Counted from the first letter of the stretch, positions 2,048 to 15,890 are shown. The stretch: DNA of 52,775 nt from Candidatus Omnitrophota bacterium (GCA_007135805.1 SLID01000091.1:1-52775), one strand, 5' to 3'. The notes: generated by a model from the letters alone, not told the origin. Numbers and translations: made by a program.

Positions 2048-3322
2048 TCAATCATCAGTTCTTTCATCTATCGGAATATCCAGAAGCCTGGGAGCGGTAT
2101 ATCTTATACCGAGAAGACCTAATGGCGCGGTCAGGCATATAGATAGAACAGCTATCGACAGTATAACCGCTCCGTTATCCACCCCTGACAAAAGCGGGAT
2201 AGCTCCCAGGGCCGCTTGAACGGTCGCCTTCGGCACATAAGCAACGGCGCAGAAAACCCTTTCTTTTGAGCTGAATCTTGTCCCGAGTAAAGCGATAAAA
2301 ACACCGCAGGACCTGAAAATAATACCTGTCGCGATGATCAAAACTCCTATTAAGCCGGCTCTAATAGCGACATTTATATCGACCGCCATACCTATAAGTA
2401 CAAACAATATTATCTCGGCAAAGATCCATATTTTGGCCAGCTTTGAAGCCAGTTCATGGGCAACAATTTCACTTTTTTCAAGCAGCACAAATCCCATTGT
2501 CATTACCGCGAGGAGCGCCGCGATGTGTGTCCAATTGCCAAGTTGAACTAAAAACACGGAAAACCCCAGAAGAAGAATTATTTTTTCTGTAGCCCTTATC
2601 TTATTGAAATGTTTTTTAAAAAACCATGACAGAAAAAGACCCGCGCAAATACCGGTTATAACACCCAGTATAATAGCATAAGGGATCATAGCCGCCGACC
2701 TGAGGTAACTTACCTTGCCACCCAGGTAAATATTTAAAAACACCGTAAAAATTGATATTGCCGCTATATCGTCCAATGATGCCCCGGCTAATACCATTGT
2801 GGGAACTTCATTTCGTTTTCCATACCCCTGCTCCTTAAGGGTTAACATAGAGGGGACCACGACCGCGGGTGATACCGCCGCGAGAATAAAGCCCATCATA
2901 CCCGCCTCCGGCCATGAAAATGACAGCAAGTACCGGCTTGCGACCGCCACGATCACTCCCTCAAAAAGACACGGGATAAAAGCCATCTTGATCGCCGATC
3001 TTCCGACCCTTTGCAGAACATCTTTCTGTATGCCCAGTCCCGCCCTCAAAAGGATGGTAATAAGCGCCAATGATTTAAGAAAAGGGGCCATTTCCCAGAT
3101 AACCGGCGGGAAGTACTCCCTGAAGAAAAAAGCGAGTGTAATTCCCCATATCGTCATACCAAAAATAGACGGTAATTTAGCTTTTTGGGCAAGCCGCCCG
3201 CTAAACCATCCTCCGATCACTATTAAGACCACCAGTATGTTCAGTGACATAAAATACCCCTTCGCGCGGATATAAAAAAACCCAACAGAAAGAACTCCCA
3301 CCAAAATAACAGTAGGAGTCAT
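2048..3322 (-). CDS. cation:proton antiporter (Na+/H+ exchanger family)
   Basis: 424-aa polytopic membrane ORF. Overall layout and segments such as LAGASLDDIAAISIF and FVLIGMAVD resemble the sodium/hydrogen exchanger family. Confidence 0.75.
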   Translation of the reverse strand: MTPTVILVGVLSVGFFYIRAKGYFMSLNILVVLIVIGGWFSGRLAQKAKLPSIFGMTIWGITLAFFFREYFPPVIWEMAPFLKSLALITILLRAGLGIQKDVLQRVGRSAIKMAFIPCLFEGVIVAVASRYLLSFSWPEAGMMGFILAAVSPAVVVPSMLTLKEQGYGKRNEVPTMVLAGASLDDIAAISIFTVFLNIYLGGKVSYLRSAAMIPYAIILGVITGICAGLFLSWFFKKHFNKIRATEKIILLLGFSVFLVQLGNWTHIAALLAVMTMGFVLLEKSEIVAHELASKLAKIWIFAEIILFVLIGMAVDINVAIRAGLIGVLIIATGIIFRSCGVFIALLGTRFSSKERVFCAVAYVPKATVQAALGAIPLLSGVDNGAVILSIAVLSICLTAPLGLLGIRYTAPRLLDIPIDERTDD

Positions 3323-3420
3323 CAGCCTATTGGGCAGTTAAAGGCGAACTCCATCGCCTTATTGATAATATCACAAACTACCTGTCTCTTAAACAAAAAA
3401 TTCTAGTGGATCATGGGAAT

Positions 3421-3547
3421 AAATAATGGGGACGGTTCTTATTTTACGCTATTGAAACTACATTTGTTGCGTGAACACTCTTTTTTCTTTATGTGTGCAT
3501 TTACATCATATTTAGTTTCTTTATAAGGACTTGCCGAACACGTCTGA
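3421..3547 (+). repeat. 127-bp dispersed direct repeat, copy 1 (ends about 20 nt downstream of the giant gene stop)
   Basis: AAATAATGGGGACGGTTCTTATTTT...TTTATAAGGACTTGCCGAACACGTCTGA aligns over its full length, same orientation, with 12587-12713 and 16024-16150. Confidence 0.9.
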
Positions 3548-3568
3548 TTACATTTGTATAGGTCTTTG

Positions 3569-6500
3569 TTACGCCGCTTGCAACAGCCTTATGTATCCTA
3601 GATACCTTTCCCTTAACATCTCGTATAGTATTACCTCTACTACCGGCATGAAAACGATCATGTTATTTTCAATGTCAATTGTATCAACCAAAGATGACCC
3701 ACTTATGTCTACGCCTACCGACGCCTCTAAAGTAAGTGTTATCATCTCGATAATACTGATATATAATTGTTCATTCATGCACTCTTTATATTGCGCTCTC
3801 AATTGCGTAGCGTCTATTCCTGCAATAAACGGTCTTTCATAGCCCTTCCCATCTCTTATCACTGCAAAACTTTCAGCTTCAACCACACTCTTATCCGCAA
3901 GTATTATCACGTTGCCGAACGTTGTATCTTTCATGCCGGAACCTTGTTCTGATTTCATCGCGTCCAATACTTCCCCCGCCAAGGAATCTCCTTCGGACAG
4001 CACTACTTTTACATTTTTAAACCCAAGTTTTCTTAGAATATTTTCCAGCCCAGCCAATTCTCTTAAAAAAGGGGCCATAAGATTATGCTGCAAATCCCCT
4101 TTGCCCATTCCCGGTATCCAACTTGTATCAAGACCTATTACTATCCTCTGATCCATTCTTTTTGCCGAACGTGCTTTTACTATCGCCGAAGCCACTATGC
4201 TATCTATGTACAGTCTGCCTACGTTTGCTTTCATTATATCTATTTGACGTTTTATATCCTTTTCTTCACCTCGTTCTTCAATTAACCCCATCACCGCCAA
4301 AACTATTTTTTCAACTCCGTCTTCAGCTCGGATATATCCGCTTGTTGACACTTCATTATATGCTCTTATAACTTGGGCCTGTCGGTTATTAAGATAACTC
4401 TCATAAGATCTGTCGACGCCAACGGGAGTTAATCTGACCGCATAAAACATTTCTGAATATAATGGCCTTGTGAATTCTAAAGATCCAATGATTTCCCAAT
4501 CATAATCAACCACACCCCTTAGAGACTCCATAACATCTATTAGATTTTTTTCGTTATAATCATTTCTTGAAGAGTACCCTATTATTATCTCCCCACTACT
4601 GCTTAAATAGTGTGGTGCTTCTTGTAAAAAATAGCGCAGAAAACTCTGATCAGGATCGCTCAAGGCTTTTCCAAGCTCCCCCGACATAGTGCTTGCTCCC
4701 CAGGGCGGGTTCACTATAATTGTGTCAAATCTTTCCGATCCATCTAACGCCTCGAAAAACCTTCCCTCCATCCCATCGGTAACCTCTCTGATATCTACTT
4801 TATCCTCAACACCATATTTCCTGGTGTTTATCCGCGATAATTCGCAGGCATGTTTATTTATATCTACACCCACAACCTTATCAGCATTTCGTAATGCCGC
4901 AACTATACCCAAAACTCCCGTTCCTGAACCGATATCCAGAAATTTTTCCCCTTTCATCGATGGTATAATGCTTGCTAATAAACCTGTCATCTGATAATGA
5001 ATAACCGGATTAAACACCCTATTATCCAACATTAACCCGTCTATTTCCGGTATCCCGATATTCCGGCTTGTTAATTGCCCTCTCCTGTCAAAAATGGCCT
5101 CAAATGGTTCATTTTTTTCGTCCTCTAAAATCCTTGGTATTTCACTCAGACTAAATGAATTTGTTTGGACTGATAAAAGGACCTTCTTTACAGTTATCGA
5201 GCTTTTTTTATTGACATCAATTTCATTGAAACAAAATTTTGTGGCTTTCTGCAGATCATCGATGTTGGCATTATTGTGTGAGGGGTACTGATCGATAAAG
5301 ACCAGATCATCGTTCCCGGATTCTATGTCCCAGGAAAGCATCAATAAATATTTAATTGCTGCATCAAGGTCCATTTTTGACATCAATTCGTTATGCTCCG
5401 GGTCACTGATCTGTTCTAAACGTCTACTAAGGGCCCACAGCATTTTTGCTCCCTTCTCGCTGGTTCTCAATAAATCAATTTCCTGATTAACTGCCTCATA
5501 AGACGCACCTGTAAAACTTGCTATCTTTAAAACAACCTGATCAAAAACCTTTTCTCGTTGCTTATACATTGCATTTTGAGGGTCTGGGTACGTCTTCGAG
5601 ACCTTTTGCGCAGATGTTATATGCCGACACTCTGAGTGGCTCGGTTCGACTGCTCGCCACTTAATAAGTTCATTCCCCTTTGATTTCCAATATTCCTCAA
5701 TTTTAGGTTTGGGAATGCGTAATTTAGGGTTCCTGAACTTTATCTGTTCCTGTACTCGCATAAAAGTTCTATTCAATATATCTTTCCTGTCTTCCCCTGA
5801 AAGATCTGGTTCCAGATCAAGCCAATCCCTGTATTGATCCCAGTCTAAATACAATCCCTTTGCCGAATCCATCAGCACTTTTATCACTAATAGGTCGGAA
5901 TAGTAAAGCGCCATGGCTTCTCTGTATACATTATTGCTCGCCTTGCCATCTCCACGGCTATACTTAAGCAACTCGAATAATTCCTTGAGGTACCCCGCTC
6001 TTATTGTTAGGTGCTTGAAAAGAGCTGCTTCCAATTTGTGATTATCTTTCCCGCTGTATGCTGAAACCATGTCCCCTAAGAGATGATAGTACTGTCCCCT
6101 TAAGTTGCCCAACACATAATGCGCCTTGCTTTGGATCTCGCAACTTACTTCTCCTTCTCGTCGTATTTCTTGTATACCAAAAATTATAGGCTTGTTCCCG
6201 CTATGCCAGGCATCAAATATGCGCGACAACCTACCGACCCTTTGATCGATGAAGTCAGTCGCCCTAAAGGCCAATGCTTCTGTTCTTTCCTCTCCAAGTA
6301 TTCCTTCCTCCTTTGCAAGTGAAGTCAAAGGGCTTGTCTCATAAAAAGTCACTCTTGCAAAAGGAAAACGTATGTATTCTGACAGCCGTGCCGTTTCAAT
6401 AAATTTTATACCTTCTTCGAGCTCATCAAAAGACATGAAGGGATCAAAAAGAACCATTCCCAGTTTTATGTTCTCGATCCCCACTTCTTCCAAAACCCTT

Positions 6501-9500
6501 ATGGCTCCCTTAACTTCTTCTTTAGTTGTTCCCTTCCTGAACCTTGCGCTTTGTTTATCGCTACCGAAATCTCCTCCTATATTAACTACTTTTAAACCGG
6601 CTTCCTTCAGTAACTTCAGCGTTTCTATCTTAGCCTGTCTCACTTCCTCAGTATCTCCTTGTCGATAAACACTATGTACGCGTAGATAGGCAAAAAAGGT
6701 AAGGTTGTTTTTTGCCTCTATTTTCCTTCTTGCAAATTCTTTATATATGTCCAGATCGCTCGCTTTTTTTGCATTGGGTCCCATAAAATCAGAATCAGTA
6801 AATTCAAAATGCGTGGCCCCCATTTCTTGCAGAGCGTCTAACTCCACAAGCAGATCATCTAAAGATTTATGGCGCCATTCCCGTTTTTGACATGTCCACA
6901 TTGAACAAAATGTGCATTTCCCCCACGAACAGCCTCTGCTAAATTCGGCATACACAACACCTTTACGCTTTAATGTTTCTGTGGCACTCTGTCTGTCGGG
7001 TAACGGTAATCTTGCAAAATCTAATGTGTCACTCACAGGATTAAGGACAACTTGGCCACGGTCTTTATCCCAATATGCCGTGTTTGAAATTTCACCTATT
7101 TCCTTATCTCCTCTCACAAATGAAACAAGATCCCGGCTTGCTTCTTCTCCCTCTCCGACTACAACCATCACATCTTCATGTTTACGGACTATTTCCTCAT
7201 ATGCCGTGGCTCCGGTGACATTTCCCACGACGAACAATGTTCCTTCTTCTTTAAATGACTTGTATTTGTTCCGCTTTTCAAGTATCTCCATCATTTGCGC
7301 ATATGTCAGGACCTTAGCCGATAATCCAATTATCTCTGGCGGATCAACAGATAATCTTTGCAGCACCTCATCGACATTTCTTTCAAATTGCAGATCAACA
7401 AGATCTACCTCCACTTTGTCTTGAAATTGCTCTTTTAAGTAAGTCTTTATTACGCTTGGCCCCAGCGATTCTGCGTAAAAAATGTATCTATCGTGAAACA
7501 AACTTATAATCGTAAAGCGTATGGCCTGACTTTTGGATACCTGGGGTTGTTCCCTTACATCATGAACGCTGTCAGGTATTTCTATGTGGCTTCTGGGTTT
7601 TTGTGCCATTGTGCTTTTACCCTGCAGAGAAGACATCCTACTTATTGAAAGACCCAATATTAGAGCCAAATCGGCTGCCATTAACAATCGTCCAATAAGT
7701 AGCGGAAAACCCATTTCGACAAGCAGTATCCCCAATGCGAAGAGGACTCCGACCTGCATGAATTTGATCCCATCTCCTATTTTTCGGCCTATATTATCCA
7801 TAAACCGCCTTGACTCGATCTTAATCGCCTTCTTCACAGCTTCCCTATCTTCATCTGTTTGGAGCGCTTCTGCGATCGTTTCGAATGCTCGATTTTGCTC
7901 GGTTAGCATGCACATTGGAGGACACCGCTTTTCTAGACCTTCCTGCTTCATGAAATCGATCACATCACGCCTTCTCTGACTTTGCCATATCTCATCTAAG
8001 GTCTGTGATTTTAGATTACCGTACACAGCAGCCGGATCGAGTCCATGCTCAACGCAGTGATAAACATTCCCATCTGAGCCTATAAAAGTCAGCCAAGGGC
8101 AAGCCCGGCACTGGTTAAATCCCTTCTTTATTTCATCCATCGCTTCTATGCGTGTTTTTGGGTAGAAAATACTAAGGCCGTTTATCCTGTCTTCAATATA
8201 TGGCCTAATTCTAAACTCCAGATCATCCATTGCTGCCTGAAAAATATATGCCGGGAATTGCTCAGCATCGTATGTGAATCTATAATAATCATCGTAATAC
8301 CTATTAAGATCCGGATGTGTCCTTATGTATTCTAGACAATCTGCTGTTTTGGTGTTCTCTAACTGTACCCCTCTTAAATATCGAACCGCGGGTCTATACC
8401 AAATATGTTGTAAAGCCCCAGGATGCCTATCCGCAATAGCCTGTATGAGCCTTGCTATTTCCATAAGTTCTCTAAAATTTAACGGCGTTATTATCACCCC
8501 TACTCCAAGACCCAATTTTTTCCCAAACTTTTCTTTTGCCGCAGCTATCTTTTCTACGTTTTCCAATGCCCTGTAAAACATTGTCTCAGGAACACCAAAA
8601 AAGTGTTTATACGTTATGGGCCTTCCAGCATTAAAACTTATACGTATGAATTTAAGACCGACGTTGACCATACGTTCAGCTATTTGATCCGTGACCAAAT
8701 GAGCTTCAGTAAATAAGCCAGTGGCCAACCCTCTCCCACGCGAAGCATACTCAATGCCTTCGAACAAGTTTTTATTAAACAGGGGATCTCCTCCGCCCGT
8801 GAAAGTAATGCTTTGCACCCCGGCATCGGCCAATCTATCGATATAAAGTTTCATATCGTCAAAAGCCATCACATACCGGCTCTTATCTTTGCATCTCGAA
8901 ATTTCATCTTTGCTGCGCCCATAGGTGCAAGTAAGGCAATTGGAGGGGCATCTTTCTGAAGGCACGAACTGGGCATTTACCGGCATGATATCGTCAAATC
9001 TTCCCTGTGCTACCAATTCTGCTCTGTCTGGGAATGCCAACCATTTACCGGTTGACATGTTCCCGTAAGTAGAGGCATTGTGCAGCAACCCTCTGACTTG
9101 TTCCAGGGGATTTTCTTCGGGTTTTTGTTCTGTCTGAAGATCCCGAGTTTCTTGCCCCCTTACCCTCGTTTCATCCTCCCTGGGCGGCCTCCTATTGTCT
9201 TCGGGGTCATTTTGCCCTATCGTTTGGCCAATTAGCGTTTGCGTCAATCTGCAACCGTGAGCACATTCGGGCAGTGGATCGCTAAAAAAGTTAACCCTCT
9301 CTGATAGTAGCTCCTGAAGAGAGGTCTCTTCGATCCTGCCATATGAGTGTTCGGAGGCAGCTGCCTGTATTCTACACGGATAAATATTTCCATCAGCTCC
9401 GATCAAAGCGTGTCCTTTCGCCAAGGGACAACTATCTACTTTAGATACCTCCCTTAGGGGAAGCTTTGCTTCATATATTTCTTTCGGCAGAATAAATCCG

Positions 9501-12403
9501 GTGGTTTCTTCTCTATAATTTCCCAAAAATTCCCCAAAAGGTCTTCCGCTTTGTTTGATCGCGTTTATTCCTTCATGCCAATGCCTTTCGATTTCTTCAT
9601 CCGGATTCGACAAATGAAATGGATCTTCTGGAACAGCATCATCGGCTATATAAAGAAGCTTGAAACCAAATTTCTTTTTACGCAATGCGGGATCCTCCCT
9701 GCACATCCTATCCCAGTTCTTCCATAGCTCTTCCGCAATAACCAGAGCGTCCATAACATTGCTTTTATGGAACAAAAATGTTGTCCACTGTTCCTGAACA
9801 GTTCCTTCTTTGAAATATCGCCATATGTTAGTCCAAATTTGTTTAACGAATTCCGGCATATCCTCCCCATGATGCTGGAAATGCTCCCCCTTAAGACCGT
9901 GAGTGCTGACCCTTAAAATATCGATGTTGTCTTGAAGATCTTGCTCGAGATAGATTATGCCGTTAGTACATAGTGATATTTTTGCTAAGGGATTTTGCGT
10001 CCTAAGTTTTCTCATAAAATCATAAATGTCGTACCCCTCCCAGGAATACATGGAGGGTTCTCCTCCGCCTAAAACAAAAATGCTTTCCGGTTGCATTTCG
10101 GCGATCTTATCGATATTTTCGAAGAGCAGAGTCGCGCCCCCCTCATGGAGAGCTCCATACGGACATTTATAACAGCTTAGATTGCATTGATTGGTGGGAT
10201 GGACTTCGACAACTTTAACTTGTCTTGAAAAACCGGTAAGATCGCCGCTATGCGGTTTGGGCCCATACCCCTCGATTCTTTTCTTTATAACTTCACGATA
10301 GACATCATCAACCTTCCCATAAACAGACGTCCAGGAATATTCCTGCACGGTTTCGCTTATCCTCTTTCTCTCTTTATCGCTGACCTCTTCCGACAGCAAC
10401 GCTTTTATACCATTCTTAAAATCTTCGACATATCTTTTAGCTTGTTGTTCAGAAACTCCCTTTTCTGGTTTGCCTTGCGGGATCGGAGCCACTAAAACAG
10501 CATGCCCATCGGCAATAAGACCAGGCCTAACCAGCATTTGTGGCCCTCCGCGATCAGAGGCTATTACTCTTCGTCCACAAGCCAAGGCTTGCAACAATCC
10601 TAAACTAAATGGTTCGTTGTCTGAGGGCAATGCAAACACATCCGCAATATTCAGCAACTCTCCTACTTCTTCCATTGAAACCCATTTATTCAAAATTTTT
10701 ATATTTTCTTCCATCCCTTTGCTTGCGATGAAATCCCTGTATTCTGCTACTATCTCATCTGCCCCAGTACCTACAAATAAAGTTAGGACTTTTCCGGGAA
10801 TCTCGTTTGAATAATCCGCTGCAGCCTCCAGCAGATAGTCCAATTTTTTCCATCTAACATACCTCCCGACATAAAGCACTACCTTGTCATAATCTCCGTC
10901 TATGCCGTAACGATCTAGCAGCTGCTTTCTGTCAACATTTCGGGGATGGAATATTCGAGCATCTAACCCGTTCCCTATCATTTCTATCTGTTCATCTTTT
11001 AACCCATACATTTTTTGGGTTTCTTCACTGATGTCGTCAGATATGCTTAGCACCCTGTCAAGTCGTTTTATGGCAGGCCTAACCAAAGAGAGCATCTCCG
11101 GGGCTTCTTGCAGCATTTTCTGTTCTGTCCCGTGTGTCGTTGACACAATTGGTATCCACGGAGCGATCAGCTGTACCAGAGGGTTCAGCAAAAACAAATG
11201 ATTTGTATGAATTACATCTGGTTGATATTCCTCAATGAAGATCTTTAGACGGTGGTAGTATATTTCCAAAAACTCGACTAGATCTCTCTTTGACATGTCT
11301 TTGTAGCGGATAGGATTAAACGGCATGCCTGAAGAAAAAACAGGGATGGTCAGTTTTGTATCTGCTGTATCACTTTCAGAAAAGATTATCGTGTCGACAA
11401 GTGCTGTTTCTTCAAGTTTAAGATCTTTAGGCAAAAGTGGCTTCCTGTACGCAAGGGAGAGGGCCAAGCTTCCTCCCCGCCGCTGATGCTCCAATGCTAA
11501 AGATTCAACAACAACCCCGCTCCCGCAATTCATAGTGGGGCCGGCAATCATCATAAGCACTCGTGGAATAGGAGTTTGTGCAGCTCGTAAAGCCCATTCC
11601 TGGGCTTTCTCTGAGGCCCGTAAAAGAACATTGTCAACTGCCTGTCTGAAATTCTGGATCTGCCCCAGGACATTGTTTAAAATCCTTGTAGAAATGTTCC
11701 TGTCTGTAATTTTCAGCAAAAACGACGCTTTCTCTTCTTCCGTTCCTAACTCCTGATATCTTAAGATAAGTTCATATACGGCCGCGTCCCTTTCTTTTCC
11801 CTTTAGCTTTGGATCTGTGGCGATATTTAGCAGGGATTCAACTGTCTCATCTGTTCCGTCTTTTTCATGTGAATCTTGATCTTCAATCGCCGGTGTGTCT
11901 ATTTCAATTTTTTCTCTTTTGGGGGTTGTTTCCAATTCCTTTTGCGTAACATCCTCGTACCCTAAAACATTGCGTCCAACTTTAAAAGTCTTATCTCCAT
12001 CAGCACCTACGTAAGGAACATATGCTTCTCCTTTATCGAACCTTATTCCATCTATGTCTATGCCCTCTAAAACCTGGAATGTGCCTCGCCCAAGTTCTTT
12101 TCGTATAATTTGCGCAATATATTTTTCTCGTTCTTTGGCTACACTTTCAGGAACACTAAAAAAATAGTCTTGTATGTAGTTTAAAAAGAAAAAAAGTTCC
12201 GCTCTTTCCTGAAACGATAGTTCTGTTGTGAAATCCGGTGATAAGCTGAGATTGTTAATAAATATGCTTGGAACAGCAAGTGTGTCTGATCGGGGAGTTA
12301 GAGAAATAGTGGGATCGGCCCACGTTATATCCAACCAAAGAAGTAATATTGCCAGTAATGAGGCCGTTATTCGTAGAAAAGATTTTTTCACGGAAACATT
12401 CAT
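3569..12403 (-). CDS. giant multidomain protein (2,944 aa): N-terminal hydrophobic anchor, GT4 glycosyltransferase, 2x radical SAM with SPASM-like tails, TM hairpin, B12-type radical SAM, NPPW methyltransferase, unknown C-terminal module
   Basis: Single uninterrupted ORF in the six-frame track. Motifs read directly: EPFSLGLLQALACG (GT1/GT4 EX7E region), CNLSCYKC + GGGEP, CPSNCLTC + GGGDP, CSWGKCTFC, LDIGSGTG + NPPW. Confidence 0.85.
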   Translation of the reverse strand: MNVSVKKSFLRITASLLAILLLWLDITWADPTISLTPRSDTLAVPSIFINNLSLSPDFTTELSFQERAELFFFLNYIQDYFFSVPESVAKEREKYIAQIIRKELGRGTFQVLEGIDIDGIRFDKGEAYVPYVGADGDKTFKVGRNVLGYEDVTQKELETTPKREKIEIDTPAIEDQDSHEKDGTDETVESLLNIATDPKLKGKERDAAVYELILRYQELGTEEEKASFLLKITDRNISTRILNNVLGQIQNFRQAVDNVLLRASEKAQEWALRAAQTPIPRVLMMIAGPTMNCGSGVVVESLALEHQRRGGSLALSLAYRKPLLPKDLKLEETALVDTIIFSESDTADTKLTIPVFSSGMPFNPIRYKDMSKRDLVEFLEIYYHRLKIFIEEYQPDVIHTNHLFLLNPLVQLIAPWIPIVSTTHGTEQKMLQEAPEMLSLVRPAIKRLDRVLSISDDISEETQKMYGLKDEQIEMIGNGLDARIFHPRNVDRKQLLDRYGIDGDYDKVVLYVGRYVRWKKLDYLLEAAADYSNEIPGKVLTLFVGTGADEIVAEYRDFIASKGMEENIKILNKWVSMEEVGELLNIADVFALPSDNEPFSLGLLQALACGRRVIASDRGGPQMLVRPGLIADGHAVLVAPIPQGKPEKGVSEQQAKRYVEDFKNGIKALLSEEVSDKERKRISETVQEYSWTSVYGKVDDVYREVIKKRIEGYGPKPHSGDLTGFSRQVKVVEVHPTNQCNLSCYKCPYGALHEGGATLLFENIDKIAEMQPESIFVLGGGEPSMYSWEGYDIYDFMRKLRTQNPLAKISLCTNGIIYLEQDLQDNIDILRVSTHGLKGEHFQHHGEDMPEFVKQIWTNIWRYFKEGTVQEQWTTFLFHKSNVMDALVIAEELWKNWDRMCREDPALRKKKFGFKLLYIADDAVPEDPFHLSNPDEEIERHWHEGINAIKQSGRPFGEFLGNYREETTGFILPKEIYEAKLPLREVSKVDSCPLAKGHALIGADGNIYPCRIQAAASEHSYGRIEETSLQELLSERVNFFSDPLPECAHGCRLTQTLIGQTIGQNDPEDNRRPPREDETRVRGQETRDLQTEQKPEENPLEQVRGLLHNASTYGNMSTGKWLAFPDRAELVAQGRFDDIMPVNAQFVPSERCPSNCLTCTYGRSKDEISRCKDKSRYVMAFDDMKLYIDRLADAGVQSITFTGGGDPLFNKNLFEGIEYASRGRGLATGLFTEAHLVTDQIAERMVNVGLKFIRISFNAGRPITYKHFFGVPETMFYRALENVEKIAAAKEKFGKKLGLGVGVIITPLNFRELMEIARLIQAIADRHPGALQHIWYRPAVRYLRGVQLENTKTADCLEYIRTHPDLNRYYDDYYRFTYDAEQFPAYIFQAAMDDLEFRIRPYIEDRINGLSIFYPKTRIEAMDEIKKGFNQCRACPWLTFIGSDGNVYHCVEHGLDPAAVYGNLKSQTLDEIWQSQRRRDVIDFMKQEGLEKRCPPMCMLTEQNRAFETIAEALQTDEDREAVKKAIKIESRRFMDNIGRKIGDGIKFMQVGVLFALGILLVEMGFPLLIGRLLMAADLALILGLSISRMSSLQGKSTMAQKPRSHIEIPDSVHDVREQPQVSKSQAIRFTIISLFHDRYIFYAESLGPSVIKTYLKEQFQDKVEVDLVDLQFERNVDEVLQRLSVDPPEIIGLSAKVLTYAQMMEILEKRNKYKSFKEEGTLFVVGNVTGATAYEEIVRKHEDVMVVVGEGEEASRDLVSFVRGDKEIGEISNTAYWDKDRGQVVLNPVSDTLDFARLPLPDRQSATETLKRKGVVYAEFSRGCSWGKCTFCSMWTCQKREWRHKSLDDLLVELDALQEMGATHFEFTDSDFMGPNAKKASDLDIYKEFARRKIEAKNNLTFFAYLRVHSVYRQGDTEEVRQAKIETLKLLKEAGLKVVNIGGDFGSDKQSARFRKGTTKEEVKGAIRVLEEVGIENIKLGMVLFDPFMSFDELEEGIKFIETARLSEYIRFPFARVTFYETSPLTSLAKEEGILGEERTEALAFRATDFIDQRVGRLSRIFDAWHSGNKPIIFGIQEIRREGEVSCEIQSKAHYVLGNLRGQYYHLLGDMVSAYSGKDNHKLEAALFKHLTIRAGYLKELFELLKYSRGDGKASNNVYREAMALYYSDLLVIKVLMDSAKGLYLDWDQYRDWLDLEPDLSGEDRKDILNRTFMRVQEQIKFRNPKLRIPKPKIEEYWKSKGNELIKWRAVEPSHSECRHITSAQKVSKTYPDPQNAMYKQREKVFDQVVLKIASFTGASYEAVNQEIDLLRTSEKGAKMLWALSRRLEQISDPEHNELMSKMDLDAAIKYLLMLSWDIESGNDDLVFIDQYPSHNNANIDDLQKATKFCFNEIDVNKKSSITVKKVLLSVQTNSFSLSEIPRILEDEKNEPFEAIFDRRGQLTSRNIGIPEIDGLMLDNRVFNPVIHYQMTGLLASIIPSMKGEKFLDIGSGTGVLGIVAALRNADKVVGVDINKHACELSRINTRKYGVEDKVDIREVTDGMEGRFFEALDGSERFDTIIVNPPWGASTMSGELGKALSDPDQSFLRYFLQEAPHYLSSSGEIIIGYSSRNDYNEKNLIDVMESLRGVVDYDWEIIGSLEFTRPLYSEMFYAVRLTPVGVDRSYESYLNNRQAQVIRAYNEVSTSGYIRAEDGVEKIVLAVMGLIEERGEEKDIKRQIDIMKANVGRLYIDSIVASAIVKARSAKRMDQRIVIGLDTSWIPGMGKGDLQHNLMAPFLRELAGLENILRKLGFKNVKVVLSEGDSLAGEVLDAMKSEQGSGMKDTTFGNVIILADKSVVEAESFAVIRDGKGYERPFIAGIDATQLRAQYKECMNEQLYISIIEMITLTLEASVGVDISGSSLVDTIDIENNMIVFMPVVEVILYEMLRERYLGYIRLLQAA
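3572..4306 (-). other. giant protein C-terminal module (about aa 2700-2944), unknown function, apparently shared with the 852-aa protein
   Basis: Collinear by-eye matches to 47482-48210. Examples: NVIILADKSVVE/NTVTLLPAFGAE, RPFIAGIDA/TLIVPIAMG, YISIIEMITLTLEAS/SSSIFGFSMLNIARS, IVFMPVVEVILYEMLRE/IKLMPITPIDAEVLRS. Confidence 0.45.
4454..5056 (-). other. class I SAM-dependent methyltransferase domain (MTS/HemK-like, NPPW motif)
   Basis: Motif I FLDIGSGTGVLGIVAA (L2489 onward), VGVDIN, and motif IV IIVNPPWG (N2565; nt 4700-4711). Confidence 0.75.
6284..7522 (-). other. B12-binding-like Rossmann segment plus radical SAM core 3 (CX4CX2C)
   Basis: PEIIGLSAKV...LFVVGNVTGA precedes YAEFSRGCSWGKCTFCSMW (Cys 1825/1830/1833; nt 6905-6931). 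This layout is typical of class B (cobalamin-type) radical SAM enzymes. Confidence 0.6.
7640..7759 (-). other. internal hydrophobic hairpin (about 2 TM segments) splitting the giant protein into two halves
   Basis: MQVGVLFALGILLVEMGFPLLIGRLLMAADLALILGLSIS (about aa 1549-1588) sits between radical SAM module 2 and the B12-like segment. Confidence 0.6.
7889..8986 (-). other. radical SAM module 2 with SPASM/twitch-like C-terminal Cys motif
   Basis: CPSNCLTC (Cys 1152/1156/1159; nt 8927-8950), FTGGGDPLFN, then CRACPW..GSDGNVYHC..YGNL..LDEIW..CPPMC. Confidence 0.7.
9239..10222 (-). other. radical SAM module 1 with SPASM/twitch-like C-terminal Cys motif
   Basis: CNLSCYKC (Cys 740/744/747; nt 10163-10186), VLGGGEPSMY, then CPLAKG..GADGNIYPC..YGRIEE..LQELL..PECAHGC (Cys 1047/1051). 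Confidence 0.7.
10289..11560 (-). other. GT-B fold glycosyltransferase domain (GT4 / group 1-like)
   Basis: RVLMMIAGPTMNCGSGVVVESLA at about aa 281. C-terminal half has VGRYVRWKKLDYLLEA...FVGTG...FALPSDNEPFSLGLLQALACGRRVIASDRGGP. Confidence 0.7.
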
Positions 12404-12510
12404 GAAACCATTCTGCTTGTTTATTGATGCCTAAATAATACTATTTTATCATATAATACCCCATTTCTTAATCTTTATTTTCCTAACTTAGGGGTCGTCA
12501 TGGGGGATCT

Positions 12511-12713
12511 GGGAAACCAGCATTAAATGGCGGGCGTTAGTATGGGGGTTTTAGACATAAATTGGCGGGATTTTCGTTCTTTTACAAAATAATGGGGACG
12601 GTTCTTATTTTGTGACCTTGGACTTAAATTTGTTGCGTGAACACTCTCTCTTCTTTACGTGTGCATTTACATCATATTTCGTTTCTTTATAAGGACTTAC
12701 CCAACACGTCTGA
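12511..12713 (+). repeat. dispersed direct repeat, copy 2 (127-bp core 12587-12713 plus a left extension shared with copy 3)
   Basis: GGGAAACCAGCATTAAATGGCGGG...ATTTTCGTTCTTTT precedes the 127-bp core. Relative to copy 3 there is an extra segment of about 36 bp. A 15-nt unit CTGAACGCATTTTTT is tandemly repeated about 2.3x at 12710-12743. Confidence 0.9.
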
Positions 12714-12743
12714 ACGCATTTTTTCTGAACGCATTTTTTCTGA

Positions 12744-13421
12744 TTATGGCCAATGTTTCGGCACATCGATATCCACACCGGACTCGATCAAATGGCTTCT
12801 TTTCGCGGTATCAAGGATAACCTCGGCCACGTCCCGGGCGGGAATACCTTGAAAGCCCGACATACGTGTTTTGGTCAGCGGCGGGTTGATCGAGAAAATC
12901 TTTACAGCAGTTTCTTGGGCCAAGGCCTGGGTAAAGCCGCGCACACCGAATTTTGTGGCGCAATAAACGGTTAGGTTCTCATAGCCGGTCTTTCCTGAAC
13001 CGCTCGATATGTTGATTACAGTTTCTTTAGTGTGGGGCAAAGCCTCTTTGGTCATCTTAATAAGACCGGCCAAATTGACATTGATCTGCTGATCGATCTT
13101 TTTATGAGATTGGTTCTCAAGATGTTCCCATGTTATGCATCCGGCATTGTTTACCAGAACATCTATTGGTCCCATTTCACTAGCTGTTCGTTTTATAACC
13201 TCCTTAATGTTGGAAAGGTCCGCTATATTGAGCTTGAGCGTCATAACCCCGGGACTGCCCAGCTCTCTGCACTTCTCAGCTACTAGTTGAGCTGGTTTCT
13301 TATCCTGATAGTACGTTATTATTACTTTCGCCCCTTCTTTTGCAAATAAAAAAGCTGTTTCCCTCCCGATTCCTATGCTGGATCCGGTTATCAGAACAAT
13401 TTTACCTTTTAAACTCTCCAT
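12744..13421 (-). CDS. short-chain dehydrogenase/reductase (SDR) family oxidoreductase
   Basis: 225 aa. Cofactor motif ITGSSIGIGRE (TGxxxGxG), NNAG, and catalytic YCATK (YxxxK). Confidence 0.85.
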   Translation of the reverse strand: MESLKGKIVLITGSSIGIGRETAFLFAKEGAKVIITYYQDKKPAQLVAEKCRELGSPGVMTLKLNIADLSNIKEVIKRTASEMGPIDVLVNNAGCITWEHLENQSHKKIDQQINVNLAGLIKMTKEALPHTKETVINISSGSGKTGYENLTVYCATKFGVRGFTQALAQETAVKIFSINPPLTKTRMSGFQGIPARDVAEVILDTAKRSHLIESGVDIDVPKHWP

Positions 13422-13693
13422 TACGACCTTCCTTTTTTTCCTTTACGGCTCTTTCCACTTTAACGAGGGTTCTTTCGTTTTTGCCTTTTACCTCTTTGTC
13501 CTGTTCCAAACCCACGGTTATGATCTGATGCCCGTTTTTCTGCAGATATGTTTTGACCTTCCCCATTTTAGTGGACGTTATGGATACTTATGTTTTTCCC
13601 CGCCTTCGGCTTCAAAGCCAACTGCTGTTTACGTTCTCTCAGCAGTCGTGACACGTCCTTCTGTCGTCTGGTTATTGTGTGTTTGGTAATCAC

Positions 13694-13780
13694 CTATCTC
13701 CTACAACAAAGACATCCTTGGAGGGTAGTCATAAAAAAAAGTACCGCCAAAACAAAAAGTACTGAAACAGCTTTCTTCAT
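13694..13780 (-). CDS. 28-aa putative prelipoprotein/micropeptide (MKKAVSVLFVLAVLFFMTTLQGCLCCRR)
   Basis: ATG is preceded by GGAGGGGGAT. It has a hydrophobic signal-like segment and the lipobox-like LQGC. It falls below the 60-aa ORF cutoff. Confidence 0.3.
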   Translation of the reverse strand: MKKAVSVLFVLAVLFFMTTLQGCLCCRR

Positions 13781-13972
13781 ATCCCCCTCCCCGCTTCCAT
13801 AAACAAAAAGACAACCCCAGCCTAAACCAAGATTGCCTCCATATATTAAATCTTAATGTCCGCCACTATCCTGCTCCTCTGTGGCTAATCCTCCGTCTGC
13901 ATCATTGCAGATAACTCAATTGTACTACCCAGCTTACGCACTGGCAAGCTTTAACCTGCCGATGAAGAGCGT

Positions 13973-14030
13973 CAGGCACGAAACTGAAAGATCTTCAGAC
14001 TAGATCCCAAAAATAGGTGCGACCCCTTTT
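13973..14030 (+). repeat. 58-bp repeat, copy A (second repeat family)
   Basis: CAGGCACGAAACTGAAAGATCTTCAGACTAGATCCCAAAAATAGGTGCGACCCCTTTT matches 16513-16570 with 4 mismatches. A second short block, CGTTTTTAGAGAT, follows in both copies. Confidence 0.85.
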
Positions 14031-14158
14031 TCTTATTCGTTCTTATCTTTCGTTTTTAGAGATATGTTTCGTTTCTGCAAAAGAGCCGCCGGGATGGTCT
14101 CGGACTTTGCTAAGTCCAATTTGGAAAACTAATTTGTTACCAGGTTCTCCCTTGTAAA

Positions 14159-14184
14159 GCTTTCTTTACACATGTAAAGAAAGC
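14159..14184. promoter_or_regulatory. 26-bp palindrome GCTTTCTTTACA-CA-TGTAAAGAAAGC (core TTTACA-N2-TGTAAA)
   Basis: Perfect 12-bp arms. The same core palindrome recurs at 16733-16746 overlapping a promoter. It could also act as a hairpin 3' of the 14198 gene. Confidence 0.4.
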
Positions 14185-14197
14185 TGCCAGAACTCGT

Positions 14198-14794: not shown

Positions 14795-14839
14795 ATCAAT
14801 TCCCTCCCCGAAAGATAACTGTCCCCCTCTTTATATTTG

Positions 14840-15307
14840 TTAAAACTTGAATTTTTTTTGCGGATCGATCTTCTTTATCTCTTTTTTGATTATATCAATG
14901 AATTTTCGTGCCGATTGCAGAGCTTTTTGAGCGTCTGTCTTTGAAAGGTGTAGTTTCCATGGTTCATATATGAACTTATTCCTATTCTTCCGCATATAAT
15001 CGAACTTAGACGTTAAAGCCTTGTATTCCTCTCCAAGAAAATGTTCGGCAAAAGAAACAACCGTTTTATGCTGAAAATTAGTGGTGGGCCGAAAACCTTT
15101 CATAAAAACAAATGCTCTTGCCGAATGAAGCATCGCGTTATAAGCCATTTCGTATGAACACGCCTCGTCTATTTCAAGTGTTCTTTCGCTGGCTTTAATT
15201 TTTTTCTCCGCTGCCTGTATTAATTTATCTATTTGGATTACGCTTATTTTTTCTTTCTTGATAAGTTTCTTTTCCAAAAGATCATTTAAAAACTTATCAG
15301 AGTTCAT
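14840..15307 (-). CDS. HEPN domain protein (putative toxin of an MNT-HEPN pair)
   Basis: 155-aa all-helical ORF with an R-x-x-R-N-x-x-x-Y segment (MRKNRNKFIY). It overlaps the upstream nucleotidyltransferase gene by 11 nt. Confidence 0.65.
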   Translation of the reverse strand: MNSDKFLNDLLEKKLIKKEKISVIQIDKLIQAAEKKIKASERTLEIDEACSYEMAYNAMLHSARAFVFMKGFRPTTNFQHKTVVSFAEHFLGEEYKALTSKFDYMRKNRNKFIYEPWKLHLSKTDAQKALQSARKFIDIIKKEIKKIDPQKKFKF

Positions 15308-15869: not shown

Positions 15870-15890
15870 ATTGTTCCCTTTTTGAGAACA

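What the first reader, a model, noticed from the sequence alone, without database searches (positions are those of the whole stretch)
3569..12403. One 2,944-aa polypeptide that looks like a whole biosynthetic gene cluster fused end to end
The uninterrupted ORF carries the following modules in order. (1) An N-terminal hydrophobic anchor. (2) A GT-B/GT4-like glycosyltransferase. (3) A radical SAM module, CNLSCYKC + GGGEP, with a SPASM-like tail (GADGNIYPC...PECAHGC). (4) A charged low-complexity linker of about 65 aa. (5) A second radical SAM module, CPSNCLTC + GGGDP, with another SPASM-like tail (CRACPW..GSDGNVYHC..CPPMC). (6) A two-helix hydrophobic hairpin. (7) A B12-binding-like segment plus a third radical SAM core (CSWGKCTFC). 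(8) A helical region of about 400 aa with no motif I recognise. (9) A class I methyltransferase (LDIGSGTG ... NPPW). (10) An unknown C-terminal module. Glycosyltransferase, SPASM-type rSAM, B12-rSAM and methyltransferase genes normally occur as separate neighbours in peptide (RiPP), lipid or glycan modification clusters. Three rSAM cores in one chain together with a GT and an MTase is an architecture I do not recognise from any described family. The gene also sits in an AT-rich, repeat-flanked accessory context.
Basis: partly seen in the sequence, partly recalled or inferred. Interest (0 to 1): 0.9.

Follow-up and report, generated by a model that had tools for sequence, protein, structure and literature searches.

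The report
Five-enzyme fusion protein with conserved ends
This is a real 2,944-residue gene that fuses a sugar transferase, three radical SAM enzymes and a methyltransferase, and it is one member of a large, uncatalogued family in Omnitrophota-type bacteria whose proteins share their two ends but carry very different enzymes in between.

Summary

It is not an assembly artefact. An independent sample holds a 2,884-aa homolog that is collinear over all modules. Synonymous sites are saturated while pN is 0.12-0.37 in every module, and all cluster cysteines are kept.

The new point is what defines the protein. It is defined by its ends, not its enzymes.
- The N-terminus is a signal-peptide-like leader with an LDI(S/T)WA(Y/D)P motif, followed by a ~150-aa domain.
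- The C-terminus is a ~280-aa domain that ends at the last residue, usually "...AL-x-AA".
- An exhaustive HMM search finds 599 clusters with the C-domain. Protein lengths run up to 5,572 aa and the cargo varies widely.
- Where taxonomy is known, members are almost all from Omnitrophota MAGs.
- The C-domain folds confidently (pLDDT 92.9) but matches nothing in Pfam, NCBIfam or PDB.

Multi-enzyme long proteins are already reported for Omnitrophota, so this is a new variant of a known kind.

The nearest solved relatives of the cargo (OxsB, BlsE, DesII, BshA, GenN) act on sugars or nucleosides, not peptides. Substrate and membrane topology remain unresolved.

The parts
3569..12403 (-). Complete gene, 2,944 aa plus stop
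   Evidence: Single ATG ORF. Collinear 61%-identical homolog P0002 in an independent sample. pN 0.12-0.37 against pS 0.63-0.96 in all 12 segments.
12317..12403 (-). aa 1-29: signal-peptide-like leader. It has a positive n-region (K6, K7, R11), a 13-aa hydrophobic core and the motif LDITWA|DP at residues 24-31.
   Evidence: Hydropathy. The motif starts at residue 24 in 45 of 59 full-length family members. Mean flank charges are +2.7 and -1.8. It resembles the BamA and Skp leaders encoded in the same window.
11894..12403 (-). aa 1-170: family N-domain (leader, helical hairpin and small beta-sheet)
   Evidence: An HMM built from 60 family N-termini hits the window ORF at 1.4e-30, residues 10-169. 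Alignments. AF2 model pLDDT 66.9 overall, 75-85 for residues 60-150. No Pfam, NCBIfam or PDB match.
10259..11863 (-). aa 181-715: about 100-aa helical pre-domain plus GT4 (GT-B) glycosyltransferase
   Evidence: Pfam Glyco_transf_4 and Glycos_transf_1. PDB neighbours BshA 5d00 and 2jjm at about 1e-19, and MshA 3c4q. The same cassette is 38% identical in P0003 at residues 888-1440. The second Glu of EX7E is Gln here, in 'EPFSLGLLQA'.
9218..10258 (-). aa 716-1062: radical SAM 1 (CX3CX2C, GGGEP) with a 4-Cys auxiliary region (C992, C1010, C1047, C1051)
   Evidence: NCBIfam MoaA-type hit at 725-844. Cysteines conserved in P0002. 43% identical to P0003 residues 2326-2667. No PDB sequence relative.
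9089..9217 (-). aa 1063-1105: charged low-complexity linker
   Evidence: Sequence. 65% identical in P0002.
7874..9088 (-). aa 1106-1510: radical SAM 2 (CX3CX2C, GGGDP) with a SPASM-like tail (C1432, C1435, C1450, C1494, C1498)
   Evidence: Pfam SPASM 1439-1495. Most conserved module, 79% identical to P0002. PDB neighbours: BlsE 7vob 5.5e-6, NifB, DesII 5e-4, MoaA. Standalone homologs at 33-37% identity.
7634..7771 (-). aa 1545-1590: two-helix hydrophobic hairpin with positively charged flanks on both sides
   Evidence: Hydropathy. Sequence.
7109..7483 (-). aa 1641-1765: B12-binding domain
   Evidence: Pfam PF02310 39.2 bits against cut-off 32.1. Part of the OxsB match.
6284..7108 (-). aa 1766-2040: radical SAM 3 core with CX4CX2C (C1825, C1830, C1833)
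   Evidence: Pfam best stretch 1820-1987. OxsB 5ul2 at E 4.1e-37 over query 1647-2004. The motif is conserved in P0002, and a CX4CX2C spacing can be read in P0027's B12/radical SAM segment.
5024..6283 (-). aa 2041-2460: helical region of unknown function. Its first part may correspond to the C-terminal helical domain of class B radical SAM enzymes.
   Evidence: No Pfam or NCBIfam hit. 59% identical to P0002 with 42 unaligned residues. The link to a class B helical domain is inference only.
4454..5023 (-). aa 2461-2650: class I SAM methyltransferase with LDIGSGTG and NPPW
   Evidence: Pfam MTS, Methyltransf_31, Cons_hypoth95 and PrmA. PDB GenN 5u4t at 2.5e-7.
3572..4411 (-). aa 2665-2944: family C-domain, ending ...RLLQAA-COOH
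   Evidence: Profile search finds 599 clusters at E<=1e-3 and 182 at E<=1e-30. The domain ends within 3 residues of the protein end in 150 of 151 members. AF2 pLDDT 92.9, pTM 0.91. No PDB or BFVD fold match at E<=1e-3. No Pfam or NCBIfam hit.
12443..12471 (-). Promoter-like site (TTAAGA-N17-TG-TAAAAT) about 40 nt upstream of the ATG
   Evidence: Consensus scan only; the number of sites found is not above the shuffled expectation.
12556..12719 (.). Upstream copy of a 135-165-nt direct repeat that brackets the gene
3390..3553 (.). Downstream copy of the same repeat (87% identical over 135 nt)

Best explanation
The ORF is a genuine single gene under selection. It is one member of an Omnitrophota-type family of modular proteins built as [signal-peptide-like leader + N-domain] - [variable enzyme cargo] - [about 280-aa C-domain ending at the C-terminus].

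In this member the cargo is GT4 glycosyltransferase, twitch-like radical SAM, SPASM-like radical SAM, B12-dependent radical SAM and an NPPW-type methyltransferase.

Shown:
- Gene integrity.
- Presence and conservation of each catalytic motif.
- Family membership through both end domains.
- Shuffling of cargo cassettes between family members and standalone genes.

Inferred:
- The five enzymes work as a one-polypeptide tailoring pathway. Fusion keeps stoichiometry and passes intermediates between neighbouring active sites.
- The polypeptide is held at the inner membrane by the N-terminal helix and the central hairpin, with the SAM-, Fe-S-, B12- and NDP-sugar-dependent modules facing the cytoplasm.
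- The substrate is most likely a sugar, nucleoside or envelope glycoconjugate small molecule rather than a peptide. In outline: glycosyl transfer, two radical-mediated rearrangements or redox steps, a B12-dependent radical methylation or rearrangement, and an N-methylation.
- The conserved end domains supply a function common to all cargoes, such as localisation, assembly or regulation. That function is not identified.
For: Integrity:
- Collinear homolog P0002 from run SRR16235686, identical in module order.
- pS is saturated (0.63-0.96) against pN 0.12-0.37 in every segment, linkers included.
- 25 of 30 Cys are conserved, including all cluster ligands.

Domains.

Family:
- C-domain profile finds 599 clusters, always C-terminal.
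- N-domain is conserved in about 60 full-length members, with the motif at residue 24.
- 25 GTDB loci are almost all labelled Omnitrophota, with several copies per genome.

Cargo variability (17 members scanned): HEAT repeats, DUF218, Radical_SAM (4/17), B12-binding (2/17), Epimerase, GDP_Man_Dehyd, Polysacc_synt_2, UDPGP, PIG-L, LpxC, APH, NDK, PPDK. This is mostly sugar-nucleotide and envelope chemistry.

Cassette shuffling:
- GT4 and radical SAM 1 recur in P0003 at other positions.
- Radical SAM 2 recurs in family member L041 and in 77 standalone genes.

Substrate class:
- Nearest solved relatives are OxsB (deoxyadenosine phosphates), BlsE, DesII and MoaA (nucleoside or NDP-sugar), BshA and MshA (UDP-GlcNAc) and GenN (aminoglycoside N-methylation).
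- Some standalone radical SAM 2 homologs sit beside Glycoamylase or CBM_4_9 genes.

Cytoplasmic face: both flanks of the 1545-1590 hairpin are rich in K and R.

Literature: a Pfam co-occurrence module in Omnitrophota long proteins lists glycosyltransferase group 1 and radical SAM together (10.64898/2026.06.07.730766).
Against: - The N-terminal segment looks like a cleavable Sec signal peptide. It has a 13-residue h-region, small residues at -3 and -1, and a positive n-region. There is no transmembrane helix between it and residue 1545. Read literally, that would put GT4 and two radical SAM modules outside the cytoplasm.
- No module reaches any NCBIfam equivalog cut-off, so no specific reaction can be assigned.
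- Substrate class rests on distant similarity (E 1e-4 to 1e-7 for radical SAM 2 and the methyltransferase).
- Radical SAM 1 has no solved relative.
- No unfused pathway was found to confirm that the five enzymes act in one route.
- The window's taxonomy is inferred from the family, not from a marker gene.
- There is no expression or protein-level evidence.
Confidence: 0.5

Rival explanations
1. Exported or delivered effector. The conserved leader is a true Sec signal, cleaved after (S/T)-W-A. The protein leaves the cytoplasm, and its cytoplasm-type enzymes act on or inside a host or prey cell. The conserved N- and C-domains would be the address or recognition modules of a dedicated delivery route.
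For: - Leader anatomy is the same across about 60 members and resembles the window's own BamA and Skp signal peptides.
- The motif position is nearly invariant.
- Some members have no other hydrophobic segment yet carry kinases, phosphorylase or NDK.
- Omnitrophota are described as epibiotic or predatory. Their giant proteins are predicted to be largely extracellular and are often flanked by secretion and pilus genes.
- The strictly terminal '...AL-x-AA' tail would suit a C-terminal recognition signal.
Against: - Three Fe-S/SAM enzymes plus a B12 enzyme need a reducing compartment, reductant and cofactor loading.
- The hairpin flanks favour a cytoplasmic location.
- No conserved secretion or partner gene lies next to family genes in general. 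Only 6 of about 20 loci share a downstream neighbour, and it is absent from the window.
- The C-domain looks like a ligand-binding alpha/beta fold, with conserved residues around its predicted beta-strands, rather than a short signal.
Confidence: 0.2
2. Polyprotein. The chain is translated as one unit and then cut at the low-complexity linkers into separate enzymes. Fusion would then serve only co-expression and stoichiometry.
For: - Charged linker at 1063-1105 and poorly conserved inter-module stretches.
- Processing of Omnitrophota giants by C39 or S8 peptidase domains has been proposed.
Against: - No peptidase domain in this protein.
- The linker is as conserved (65%) as the catalytic modules.
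- No recurring cleavage motif was seen.
Confidence: 0.1
3. RiPP maturase mega-enzyme. The SPASM and B12 radical SAM modules, the glycosyltransferase and the methyltransferase would modify a ribosomal precursor peptide encoded nearby.
For: - SPASM/twitch and B12 radical SAM enzymes, glycosyltransferases and methyltransferases all occur in RiPP clusters (general knowledge).
- A mechanical 28-aa ORF with a Cys-rich tail lies at 13694-13780.
Against: - No PqqD/RRE domain among the Pfam hits.
- The neighbours are SDR, PRiA4_ORF3 and HEPN/NTase genes, with no transporter, peptidase or precursor.
- The homolog's contig has different neighbours.
- The nearest solved relatives are not peptide-modifying enzymes.
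- Family cargo is dominated by sugar-nucleotide enzymes.
Confidence: 0.05
4. Artefact. The ORF would be a chimeric assembly, or a run of separate genes joined by missed stops or frameshifts.
For: - Metagenome-derived contig.
- The giant protein's 90%-identity cluster holds one member on one contig, and four other window proteins that were looked up are also singletons seen only on the 52,775-nt contig.
Against: - An independent run (SRR16235686) yields the same module order over 2,884 aa with no stops.
- Purifying selection is seen in all segments.
- Both family end-domains sit at the expected ends.
- By my own estimate from a ~5% per-codon stop frequency, an 8.8-kb open frame at 42% GC has a chance probability near e^-150.
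Confidence: 0.02

Closest known systems
Omnitrophota long or giant proteins, 'multi-enzyme metabolic cluster' class (West-Roberts et al. 2023, bioRxiv 10.1101/2023.11.21.568195; Nielsen & Lui 2026, bioRxiv 10.64898/2026.06.07.730766; Seymour et al. 2023, PMC10066038)
   Same: - Same phylum-level distribution.
- Many unrelated metabolic Pfam domains in one chain.
- Signal peptide and/or transmembrane segments.
- Glycosyltransferase group 1, radical SAM, PPDK_N, methyltransferase, HAD and HEAT domains among the recurrent content.
- The same paradox of cytoplasm-type enzymes behind an export-type leader.
   Different: - Those studies concern proteins of at least 10,000 aa, or ORFs over 20 kb. This one is 2,944 aa, and the listed family members span about 0.7-5.6 kaa.
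- I found no mention there of a conserved N-terminal motif or domain, or of a conserved C-terminal domain.
- Whether the giants carry these end domains was not tested.
OxsB and other class B (B12-dependent) radical SAM enzymes
   Same: B12-binding Rossmann domain followed by a radical SAM core. OxsB 5ul2 matches at E 4.1e-37 over 358 residues.
   Different: - CX4CX2C spacing.
- Embedded in a 2,944-aa chain.
- Scores are far below every NCBIfam equivalog cut-off (TIGR04072: 72 bits against 360; HpnR: 62 against 650).
FbiC (fusion of CofG and CofH), a known protein with two radical SAM domains
   Same: More than one radical SAM core in a single polypeptide, acting in one pathway. One paper in the held library (PMC11917521, on production of an F420 precursor) contains the phrase 'two radical SAM domains'; the paper itself was not read, and the FbiC/CofG-CofH identification is my own knowledge.
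   Different: - Three cores of three different subtypes, plus a glycosyltransferase and a methyltransferase.
- No sequence relation to FbiC was tested.
Aminoglycoside or nucleoside-antibiotic tailoring sets (GT4, B12 radical SAM C-methylase, twitch radical SAM, N-methyltransferase such as GenN), encoded as separate genes
   Same: The same kinds of enzymes occur together. GenN, BlsE, DesII and OxsB are the nearest solved relatives of three modules.
   Different: - The similarities are distant (E 1e-4 to 1e-7, except OxsB).
- No aminocyclitol or nucleoside core-synthesis enzyme is present.
- This resemblance comes from general knowledge and is a lead, not a test.
Polymorphic toxin or effector proteins (conserved trafficking end, variable payload)
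   Same: Conserved terminal modules with swappable enzymatic payload, and several paralogs per genome.
   Different: - Both ends are conserved and the variable part is in the middle.
- The payloads are biosynthetic or metabolic enzymes, not toxins.
- No immunity gene and no known secretion-system domain was detected.

Membership tests
Radical SAM superfamily (PF04055) | Three-Cys motif binding the [4Fe-4S] cluster (canonical CX3CX2C) in a partial TIM barrel | tested here: met
   Pfam 122.2 bits in 3 stretches. C740/744/747 and C1152/1156/1159 are canonical. C1825/1830/1833 has CX4CX2C spacing. All are conserved in P0002.
Radical SAM superfamily (PF04055) | SAM-binding GGE-type motif | tested here: met
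   GGGEP (about 779-783) and GGGDP (about 1203-1207) are read in the sequence and conserved. The motif was not checked for the third core.
SPASM / twitch subfamily | C-terminal auxiliary Fe-S domain; canonical SPASM has 7 Cys | tested here: inconclusive
   Pfam SPASM 51.8 bits in 2 stretches. However, only 4 Cys follow core 1 (C992, C1010, C1047, C1051) and 5-6 follow core 2. These are twitch-like or truncated SPASM.
Class B (B12-dependent) radical SAM | N-terminal cobalamin-binding Rossmann domain directly before the radical SAM core | tested here: met
   PF02310 at 1646-1759, 39.2 bits against cut-off 32.1. OxsB at E 4.1e-37.
Specific B12 radical SAM equivalogs (TIGR04072 ladderane-type, HpnR, ArsL, MCR Gln methylase, BchE) | Score above the curated NCBIfam cut-off | tested here: not met
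   54-72 bits against cut-offs of 360-650.
GT4 glycosyltransferase (GT-B fold) | Glyco_transf_4 N-domain plus Glycos_transf_1 C-domain | tested here: met
   51.4 and 73.7 bits, both above cut-off. BshA and MshA structures match at 1e-19 to 1e-11.
GT4 glycosyltransferase (GT-B fold) | EX7E motif in the C-domain | tested here: inconclusive
   The query and P0002 read E-PFSLGLL-Q, so the second Glu is Gln. P0003 keeps E...E.
Class I SAM methyltransferase, (D/N)PP(Y/F/W) N-methylase type | Motif I GxGxG and motif IV NPPW | tested here: met
   LDIGSGTG and NPPW are conserved in P0002. MTS 51.6 bits.
RiPP radical SAM maturase | RiPP recognition element (PqqD-like) and a nearby precursor peptide gene | tested here: not met
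   No PqqD/RRE among Pfam hits at E<=0.1. No credible precursor in 12404-14197. The neighbours are unrelated.
NRPS/PKS-type megasynthase | Carrier-protein (PP-binding) domains with KS/AT or C/A domains | tested here: not met
   None of these appears among the 25 best of 31 Pfam families at E<=0.1.
Omnitrophota giant proteins as published | Length of at least 10,000 aa (or ORF over 20 kb) | tested here: not met
   2,944 aa from an 8.8-kb ORF. Thresholds are given.
Omnitrophota giant proteins as published | Many unrelated enzyme Pfams in one chain with a signal peptide and/or transmembrane segments, encoded in an Omnitrophota genome | tested here: met
   Domains; leader and hairpin. The phylum is inferred from the distribution of the C-domain, not from a marker gene in the window.
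End-conserved family defined here (N-leader/N-domain plus C-domain) | C-domain (about 280 aa) ending at the last residue | tested here: met
   hmmsearch 434.7 bits, with the domain envelope ending at the last residue before the stop. 150 of 151 members end within 3 residues of the C-terminus.
End-conserved family defined here (N-leader/N-domain plus C-domain) | Leader with the LD(I/V)(S/T)WA(Y/H/D)P motif at about residue 24, plus the N-domain | tested here: met
   LDITWADP at residues 24-31. N-domain HMM at 1.4e-30. The distal 'IQIALK...GYEW.SDKY.VK' part is degenerate in the query.
Prokaryotic viperin / MADS defence proteins (PADLOC) | Full-length match to the defence-system models | tested here: not met
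   pVip matches only profile positions 8-161 of 257 (the radical SAM core). mad2 matches only the methyltransferase part, 210-416 of 492.

The most novel reading that the evidence does not exclude
The conserved leader/N-domain and the strictly C-terminal 280-aa domain (ending '...AL-x-AA') are the two address labels of an undescribed Omnitrophota cargo system. This system would export, display or inject arbitrary cytoplasm-type enzymes, including Fe-S, B12 and SAM enzymes, into a host or prey cell or into a special compartment. This gene would then be a delivered five-enzyme pathway that rewrites a host metabolite or surface glycan.
Probability: 0.15. Interest if true: 0.9.

Novelty: new variant of a known kind. 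Interest (0 to 1): 0.62.

Why it matters
The roles of Omnitrophota long proteins are described as poorly understood. Published work covers the extreme giants and lists their domains, but gives no shared handle for studying them.

Here a mid-sized, tractable protein leads to a family of at least 599 sequence clusters defined by two conserved end modules. Neither module is in Pfam, NCBIfam or PDB, and one of them folds very confidently.

That gives concrete objects to test:
- Is the leader cleaved?
- Which side of the membrane does the cargo face?
- What does the C-domain bind?

It also gives a simple search rule for finding all members of the family.

This particular member holds three different radical SAM subtypes plus a glycosyltransferase and a methyltransferase in one chain. 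That makes it a natural example of an entire tailoring pathway in one polypeptide, and a possible source of new sugar or nucleoside chemistry.

Tried and rejected
- **Whole-protein and C-domain word-index searches** found only 5 and 2 proteins. The exhaustive HMM search was needed to see the family.
- **First genome scan** failed because the alignment had no sufficiently conserved stretch. It was repeated with consensus-like members.
- **Fold searches** of the C-domain against PDB and BFVD, and of the N-domain against PDB, gave no match at E<=1e-3. The best TM-score was about 0.26.
- **Pfam and NCBIfam** on the N-domain, helical region and C-domain gave only noise.
- **Transmembrane parity across the family** could not be counted. 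Simple hydropathy is too noisy, because buried strands of soluble domains score as transmembrane. Topology therefore stays open.
- **Direct taxonomy of the window** failed:
  - the S2 protein was not on record with my start codon;
  - cluster look-ups returned singletons with no names.
- **Unfused cluster.** Radical SAM 2 homologs have non-homologous neighbours, and none is a GT4, B12 radical SAM or methyltransferase.
- **Defence-system reading.** TIR genes lie beside one standalone homolog, and there are PADLOC pVip and mad2 hits. I judged these to be generic domain similarity.
- **A second C-domain in the window.** Only the last ~30 residues of ORF 47479-50037, and of P0003, align to the C-domain, and weakly.


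Full report
**1. The observation**

The window holds one ATG-started ORF of 2,944 codons on the minus strand at 3569..12403. Only nine further codons are open upstream.

- Glyco_transf_4 (382-482) and Glycos_transf_1 (506-629).
- Radical_SAM in three stretches.
- SPASM in two stretches.
- B12-binding (1646-1759).
- MTS-type methyltransferase (2473-2624).

NCBIfam places the other two radical SAM cores at 725-844 and 1150-1339. No curated equivalog cut-off is reached by any module.

The motifs are in the sequence as described, with three corrections:
- The third core is CX4CX2C (C1825, C1830, C1833), not CX3CX2C.
- The auxiliary regions carry 4 and 5-6 cysteines rather than the seven of a full SPASM domain.
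- The low-complexity linker is about 45 aa (1063-1105), because the second radical SAM module already starts near residue 1106.

The context claims also hold:
- GC is 0.40-0.44 over the gene, against about 0.50 in most of the window.
- A 135-165-nt direct repeat brackets the gene at 3390-3553 and 12556-12719, with a third copy at 15993-16156.

**2. Is the gene real?**

A search of 5.8 billion proteins returned one full-length relative, P0002 (2,884 aa, 61% identity). It comes from a different sequencing run.

A codon-level comparison shows the same twelve segments in the same order.
- Amino-acid identity ranges from 0.40 (transmembrane hairpin) to 0.79 (radical SAM 2).
- Synonymous differences are saturated (pS 0.63-0.96), while pN is 0.12-0.37 in every segment, linkers included.
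- 25 of 30 cysteines are conserved, including every presumed cluster ligand.

A chimeric assembly, or a string of genes joined by missed stops, is therefore very unlikely.

**3. What it really is: a family defined by its ends**

Three other long proteins from the first search match the query only at the extreme N-terminus and/or in the last ~280 residues:
- P0003, 3,077 aa.
- P0004, 4,345 aa.
- P0005, 4,983 aa.

Their middles are unrelated to the query's: LpxC, epimerase and APH in one, ILEI and Metallophos in another, and GT4 with PPDK in the third.

A profile of the C-terminal region was searched exhaustively against 1.84 billion representatives.
- It found 599 clusters at E<=1e-3, 403 at E<=1e-10 and 182 at E<=1e-30.
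- The listed members are up to 5,572 aa long. Many of the short ones are contig-truncated fragments that lack the N-terminus.
- In 150 of 151 retrieved members the domain ends within three residues of the C-terminus.
- The final dipeptide is AA in 90 members and SA in 32.

Full-length members also share the N-terminus. It has a basic stretch, a 13-residue hydrophobic core and the motif LD(I/V)(S/T)WA(Y/H/D)P. The motif begins at residue 24 in 45 of 59 cases. A domain of about 150 aa follows. The query matches an HMM of this region at 1.4e-30.

Cargo between the ends is highly variable. In 17 members scanned, the hits include:
- HEAT repeats and DUF218.
- Radical_SAM (4 of 17) and B12-binding (2 of 17).
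- NAD-epimerases, GDP-mannose dehydratase, Polysacc_synt_2, UDPGP, PIG-L and LpxC.
- APH, NDK, PPDK, HAD and Metallophos.

A scan of one genome per GTDB species found 25 loci. Almost all are labelled Omnitrophota or Omnitrophica, a few carry other PVC labels, and several genomes hold two or three copies. The window contains one clear member.

The rest of the window is ordinary diderm chromosome:
- rpsB-tsf-pyrH-frr.
- BamA.
- LpxB, LpxC and LpxI.
- DnaB.

I could not place the window taxonomically by a marker gene. Its Omnitrophota origin is inferred from the family.

**4. The end domains**

The C-domain gives a very confident AlphaFold model (pLDDT 92.9, pTM 0.91). It has:
- a four-helix N-terminal part;
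- a five-stranded Rossmann-like alpha/beta core;
- a small beta-meander;
- a terminal helix.

Foldseek finds nothing at E<=1e-3 in PDB or BFVD. The best hits are periplasmic-binding-protein, LacI or SIS-like folds at TM about 0.26. Pfam and NCBIfam are silent.

The invariant or near-invariant positions include T95-x-W97-x-P99 just after the first core strand (E89-94), N132-V133 at the start of the second (E133-138) and N166 just before the third (E167-172). I read this clustering around the sheet as a hint of a ligand-binding crevice. This is inference, because I could not inspect coordinates.

The N-domain model is mediocre (pLDDT 66.9 overall, 75-85 for residues 60-150) and has no fold match.

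**5. The cargo of this member**

The closest solved structures by sequence are:
- B12/radical SAM module: OxsB, E 4.1e-37.
- GT4: BshA, MshA and related enzymes, 1e-19 to 1e-11.
- Radical SAM 2: BlsE 5.5e-6, NifB, DesII 5e-4 and MoaA.
- Methyltransferase: GenN, 2.5e-7. Its NPPW motif is typical of N-methylases.
- Radical SAM 1: no solved relative.

All the relatives act on nucleosides, NDP-sugars or aminoglycosides, not on peptides.

The RiPP reading finds no support:
- No PqqD/RRE domain.
- No credible precursor ORF.
- The neighbours are an SDR, PRiA4_ORF3 and HEPN/nucleotidyltransferase pairs.
- The homolog's contig has different neighbours.

The modules behave as mobile cassettes.
- The GT4 with its helical pre-domain (38% identity) and radical SAM 1 (43% identity) recur in P0003, separated there by a PPDK module.
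- Radical SAM 2 has standalone homologs at 33-37% identity.
- Of 80 metagenomic relatives kept, 77 are standalone genes, two are ORFs of about 1,160 aa, and one lies inside another C-domain family member, L041.
- The standalone genes have varied neighbours: LuxR-type regulators, Glycoamylase or CBM_4_9 proteins, and in one case two TIR genes.

No unfused GT4, B12 radical SAM and methyltransferase cluster was found. PADLOC hits (pVip, mad2) cover only the generic cores.

**6. How it most likely works, and what stays open**

I commit to the following reading. The protein is a self-contained, membrane-tethered tailoring pathway, and fusion enforces stoichiometry and proximity. It acts on a sugar, nucleoside or envelope glycoconjugate substrate.

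The step order is not shown to follow the domain order. In outline it would be:
- glycosyl transfer;
- two radical steps;
- a B12-dependent radical methylation or rearrangement;
- an N-methylation.

The end domains would supply a function common to all cargoes.

The main difficulty is topology.
- The leader looks like a cleavable Sec signal. It has a 13-residue h-region, (S/T)-W-A at -3 to -1, a mean n-region charge of +2.7, and a mean charge of -1.8 after the core.
- It resembles the BamA and Skp leaders encoded in the same window.
- No transmembrane helix follows it until the hairpin at 1545-1590.
- Yet both flanks of that hairpin are K/R-rich, which argues that the flanking radical SAM modules are cytoplasmic.
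- Fe-S, SAM and B12 chemistry is also hard to place outside the cytoplasm.

The same paradox is noted in the literature on Omnitrophota giants. The rival reading of an exported or host-delivered effector therefore keeps real weight. My simple hydropathy counts were too noisy to settle transmembrane parity across the family.

**7. Comparison with what is known**

Giant and long multi-enzyme proteins are documented for Omnitrophota. Radical SAM, PPDK_N, methyltransferase and HAD are among their frequent domains. Glycosyltransferase group 1 and radical SAM are listed together in one Pfam co-occurrence module.

Those studies address proteins of at least 10 kaa, or ORFs over 20 kb. In the text I searched, they do not describe conserved terminal modules.

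A text search for multi-radical-SAM proteins returned two papers containing 'two radical SAM domains' and none with three. One is on an F420 precursor; from my own knowledge, the example there is FbiC.

I therefore rate the finding as a new variant of a known kind. The phenomenon is known. The triple radical SAM cargo, and especially the end-domain-defined family, are to my knowledge undescribed.

**8. Verdict**

- It is a genuine gene.
- The substrate is unknown and the topology is unresolved.

Interest is 0.62. The protein itself is an unusual member of a reported class. The family handle it exposes, with two uncatalogued and well-conserved end domains, makes the open question of what Omnitrophota long proteins do, and where, directly testable.

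Noticed in passing
window 3306-3367 (-): Fluoride riboswitch (RF01734, 64.6 bits, E 3.8e-16). It lies directly upstream of the Na_H_Exchanger-family gene at 2048-3322 (-). A terminator-like hairpin at 3320-3293 overlaps its 3' end.
   Followed up: partly
window 3390-3553, 12556-12719, 15993-16156: Three copies of a 135-165-nt direct repeat (74-100% identity), found only inside the low-GC stretch. On the - strand each copy sits upstream of a gene or operon, and two are followed by a similar TTAAGA-N16/17-TG-TAxxAT promoter-like site. No Rfam match, and no copy in any fetched locus.
   Followed up: partly
window ~3300-18950: A low-GC (0.38-0.44) accessory stretch. Besides the giant gene it holds an SDR, PRiA4_ORF3, a HEPN plus nucleotidyltransferase pair and a second nucleotidyltransferase. 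It ends at tRNA-Lys(ttt) 18953-19028, next to a 103-nt tandem duplication (18735-18940) and a perfect 23-nt inverted repeat (18905-18956). It looks like an island inserted beside a tRNA.
   Followed up: no
window 47479-50037 (-): An 852-aa ORF with no Pfam hit. It has a similar leader (basic stretch, then ILAVFLVANFLFL), an 'NLAAES..AFQE' stretch like the family's 'TLA.PS.FQ', and a C-terminal tail 'LMPITPIDAEVLRSIFENARQVLLSV'. The tail aligns only with the last ~30 residues of the family C-domain (hhalign E 0.11; P0003's tail gives E 0.0066). It may be a distant relative, or may share only a terminal tail motif.
   Followed up: partly
family proteins P0008, P0020, P0053, P0062, P0063 and others (internal): A recurrent internal motif, 'SDGYRHPAF...(I/L)HE(G/A)F(E/K)SH(F/Y)WGM', next to pairs of hydrophobic helices. 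It is often repeated several times per protein and interleaved with HEAT repeats. It is absent from the window's protein.
   Followed up: no
L007, L008, L009, L016, L017, L018 (downstream of the family gene): In 6 of about 20 Omnitrophota loci, the family gene is followed on the same strand by a conserved ORF of 455-612 aligned residues, 25-78% identical between loci. It has its own hydrophobic leader ('FLLSNISFAA') and the motif 'IIHIQDAHCNYEAQ...VSVEGA.G.IDTSWFRAFPD'. There is no homolog in the window.
   Followed up: partly
window 13694-13780 (-): A mechanical 28-aa ORF, MKKAVSVLFVLAVLFFMTTLQGCLCCRR. It has a lipobox-like LQGC followed by a Cys-rich tail. It may be chance.
   Followed up: no
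family C-termini (151 proteins): The chains end in '...AL-x-AA' (AA in 90 of 151, SA in 32 of 151). From general knowledge, a nonpolar Ala-Ala C-terminus resembles the end of the ssrA tag recognised by ClpX and tail-specific protease.
   Followed up: no
L035 (NCBI GCA_040364335.1 contig): A standalone homolog of the second radical SAM module (P0157, 36% identity, 35% by BLASTP). It sits directly after two TIR-domain genes (ThsB_TIR, TIR_2), which suggests a defence-type context for that relative.
   Followed up: partly
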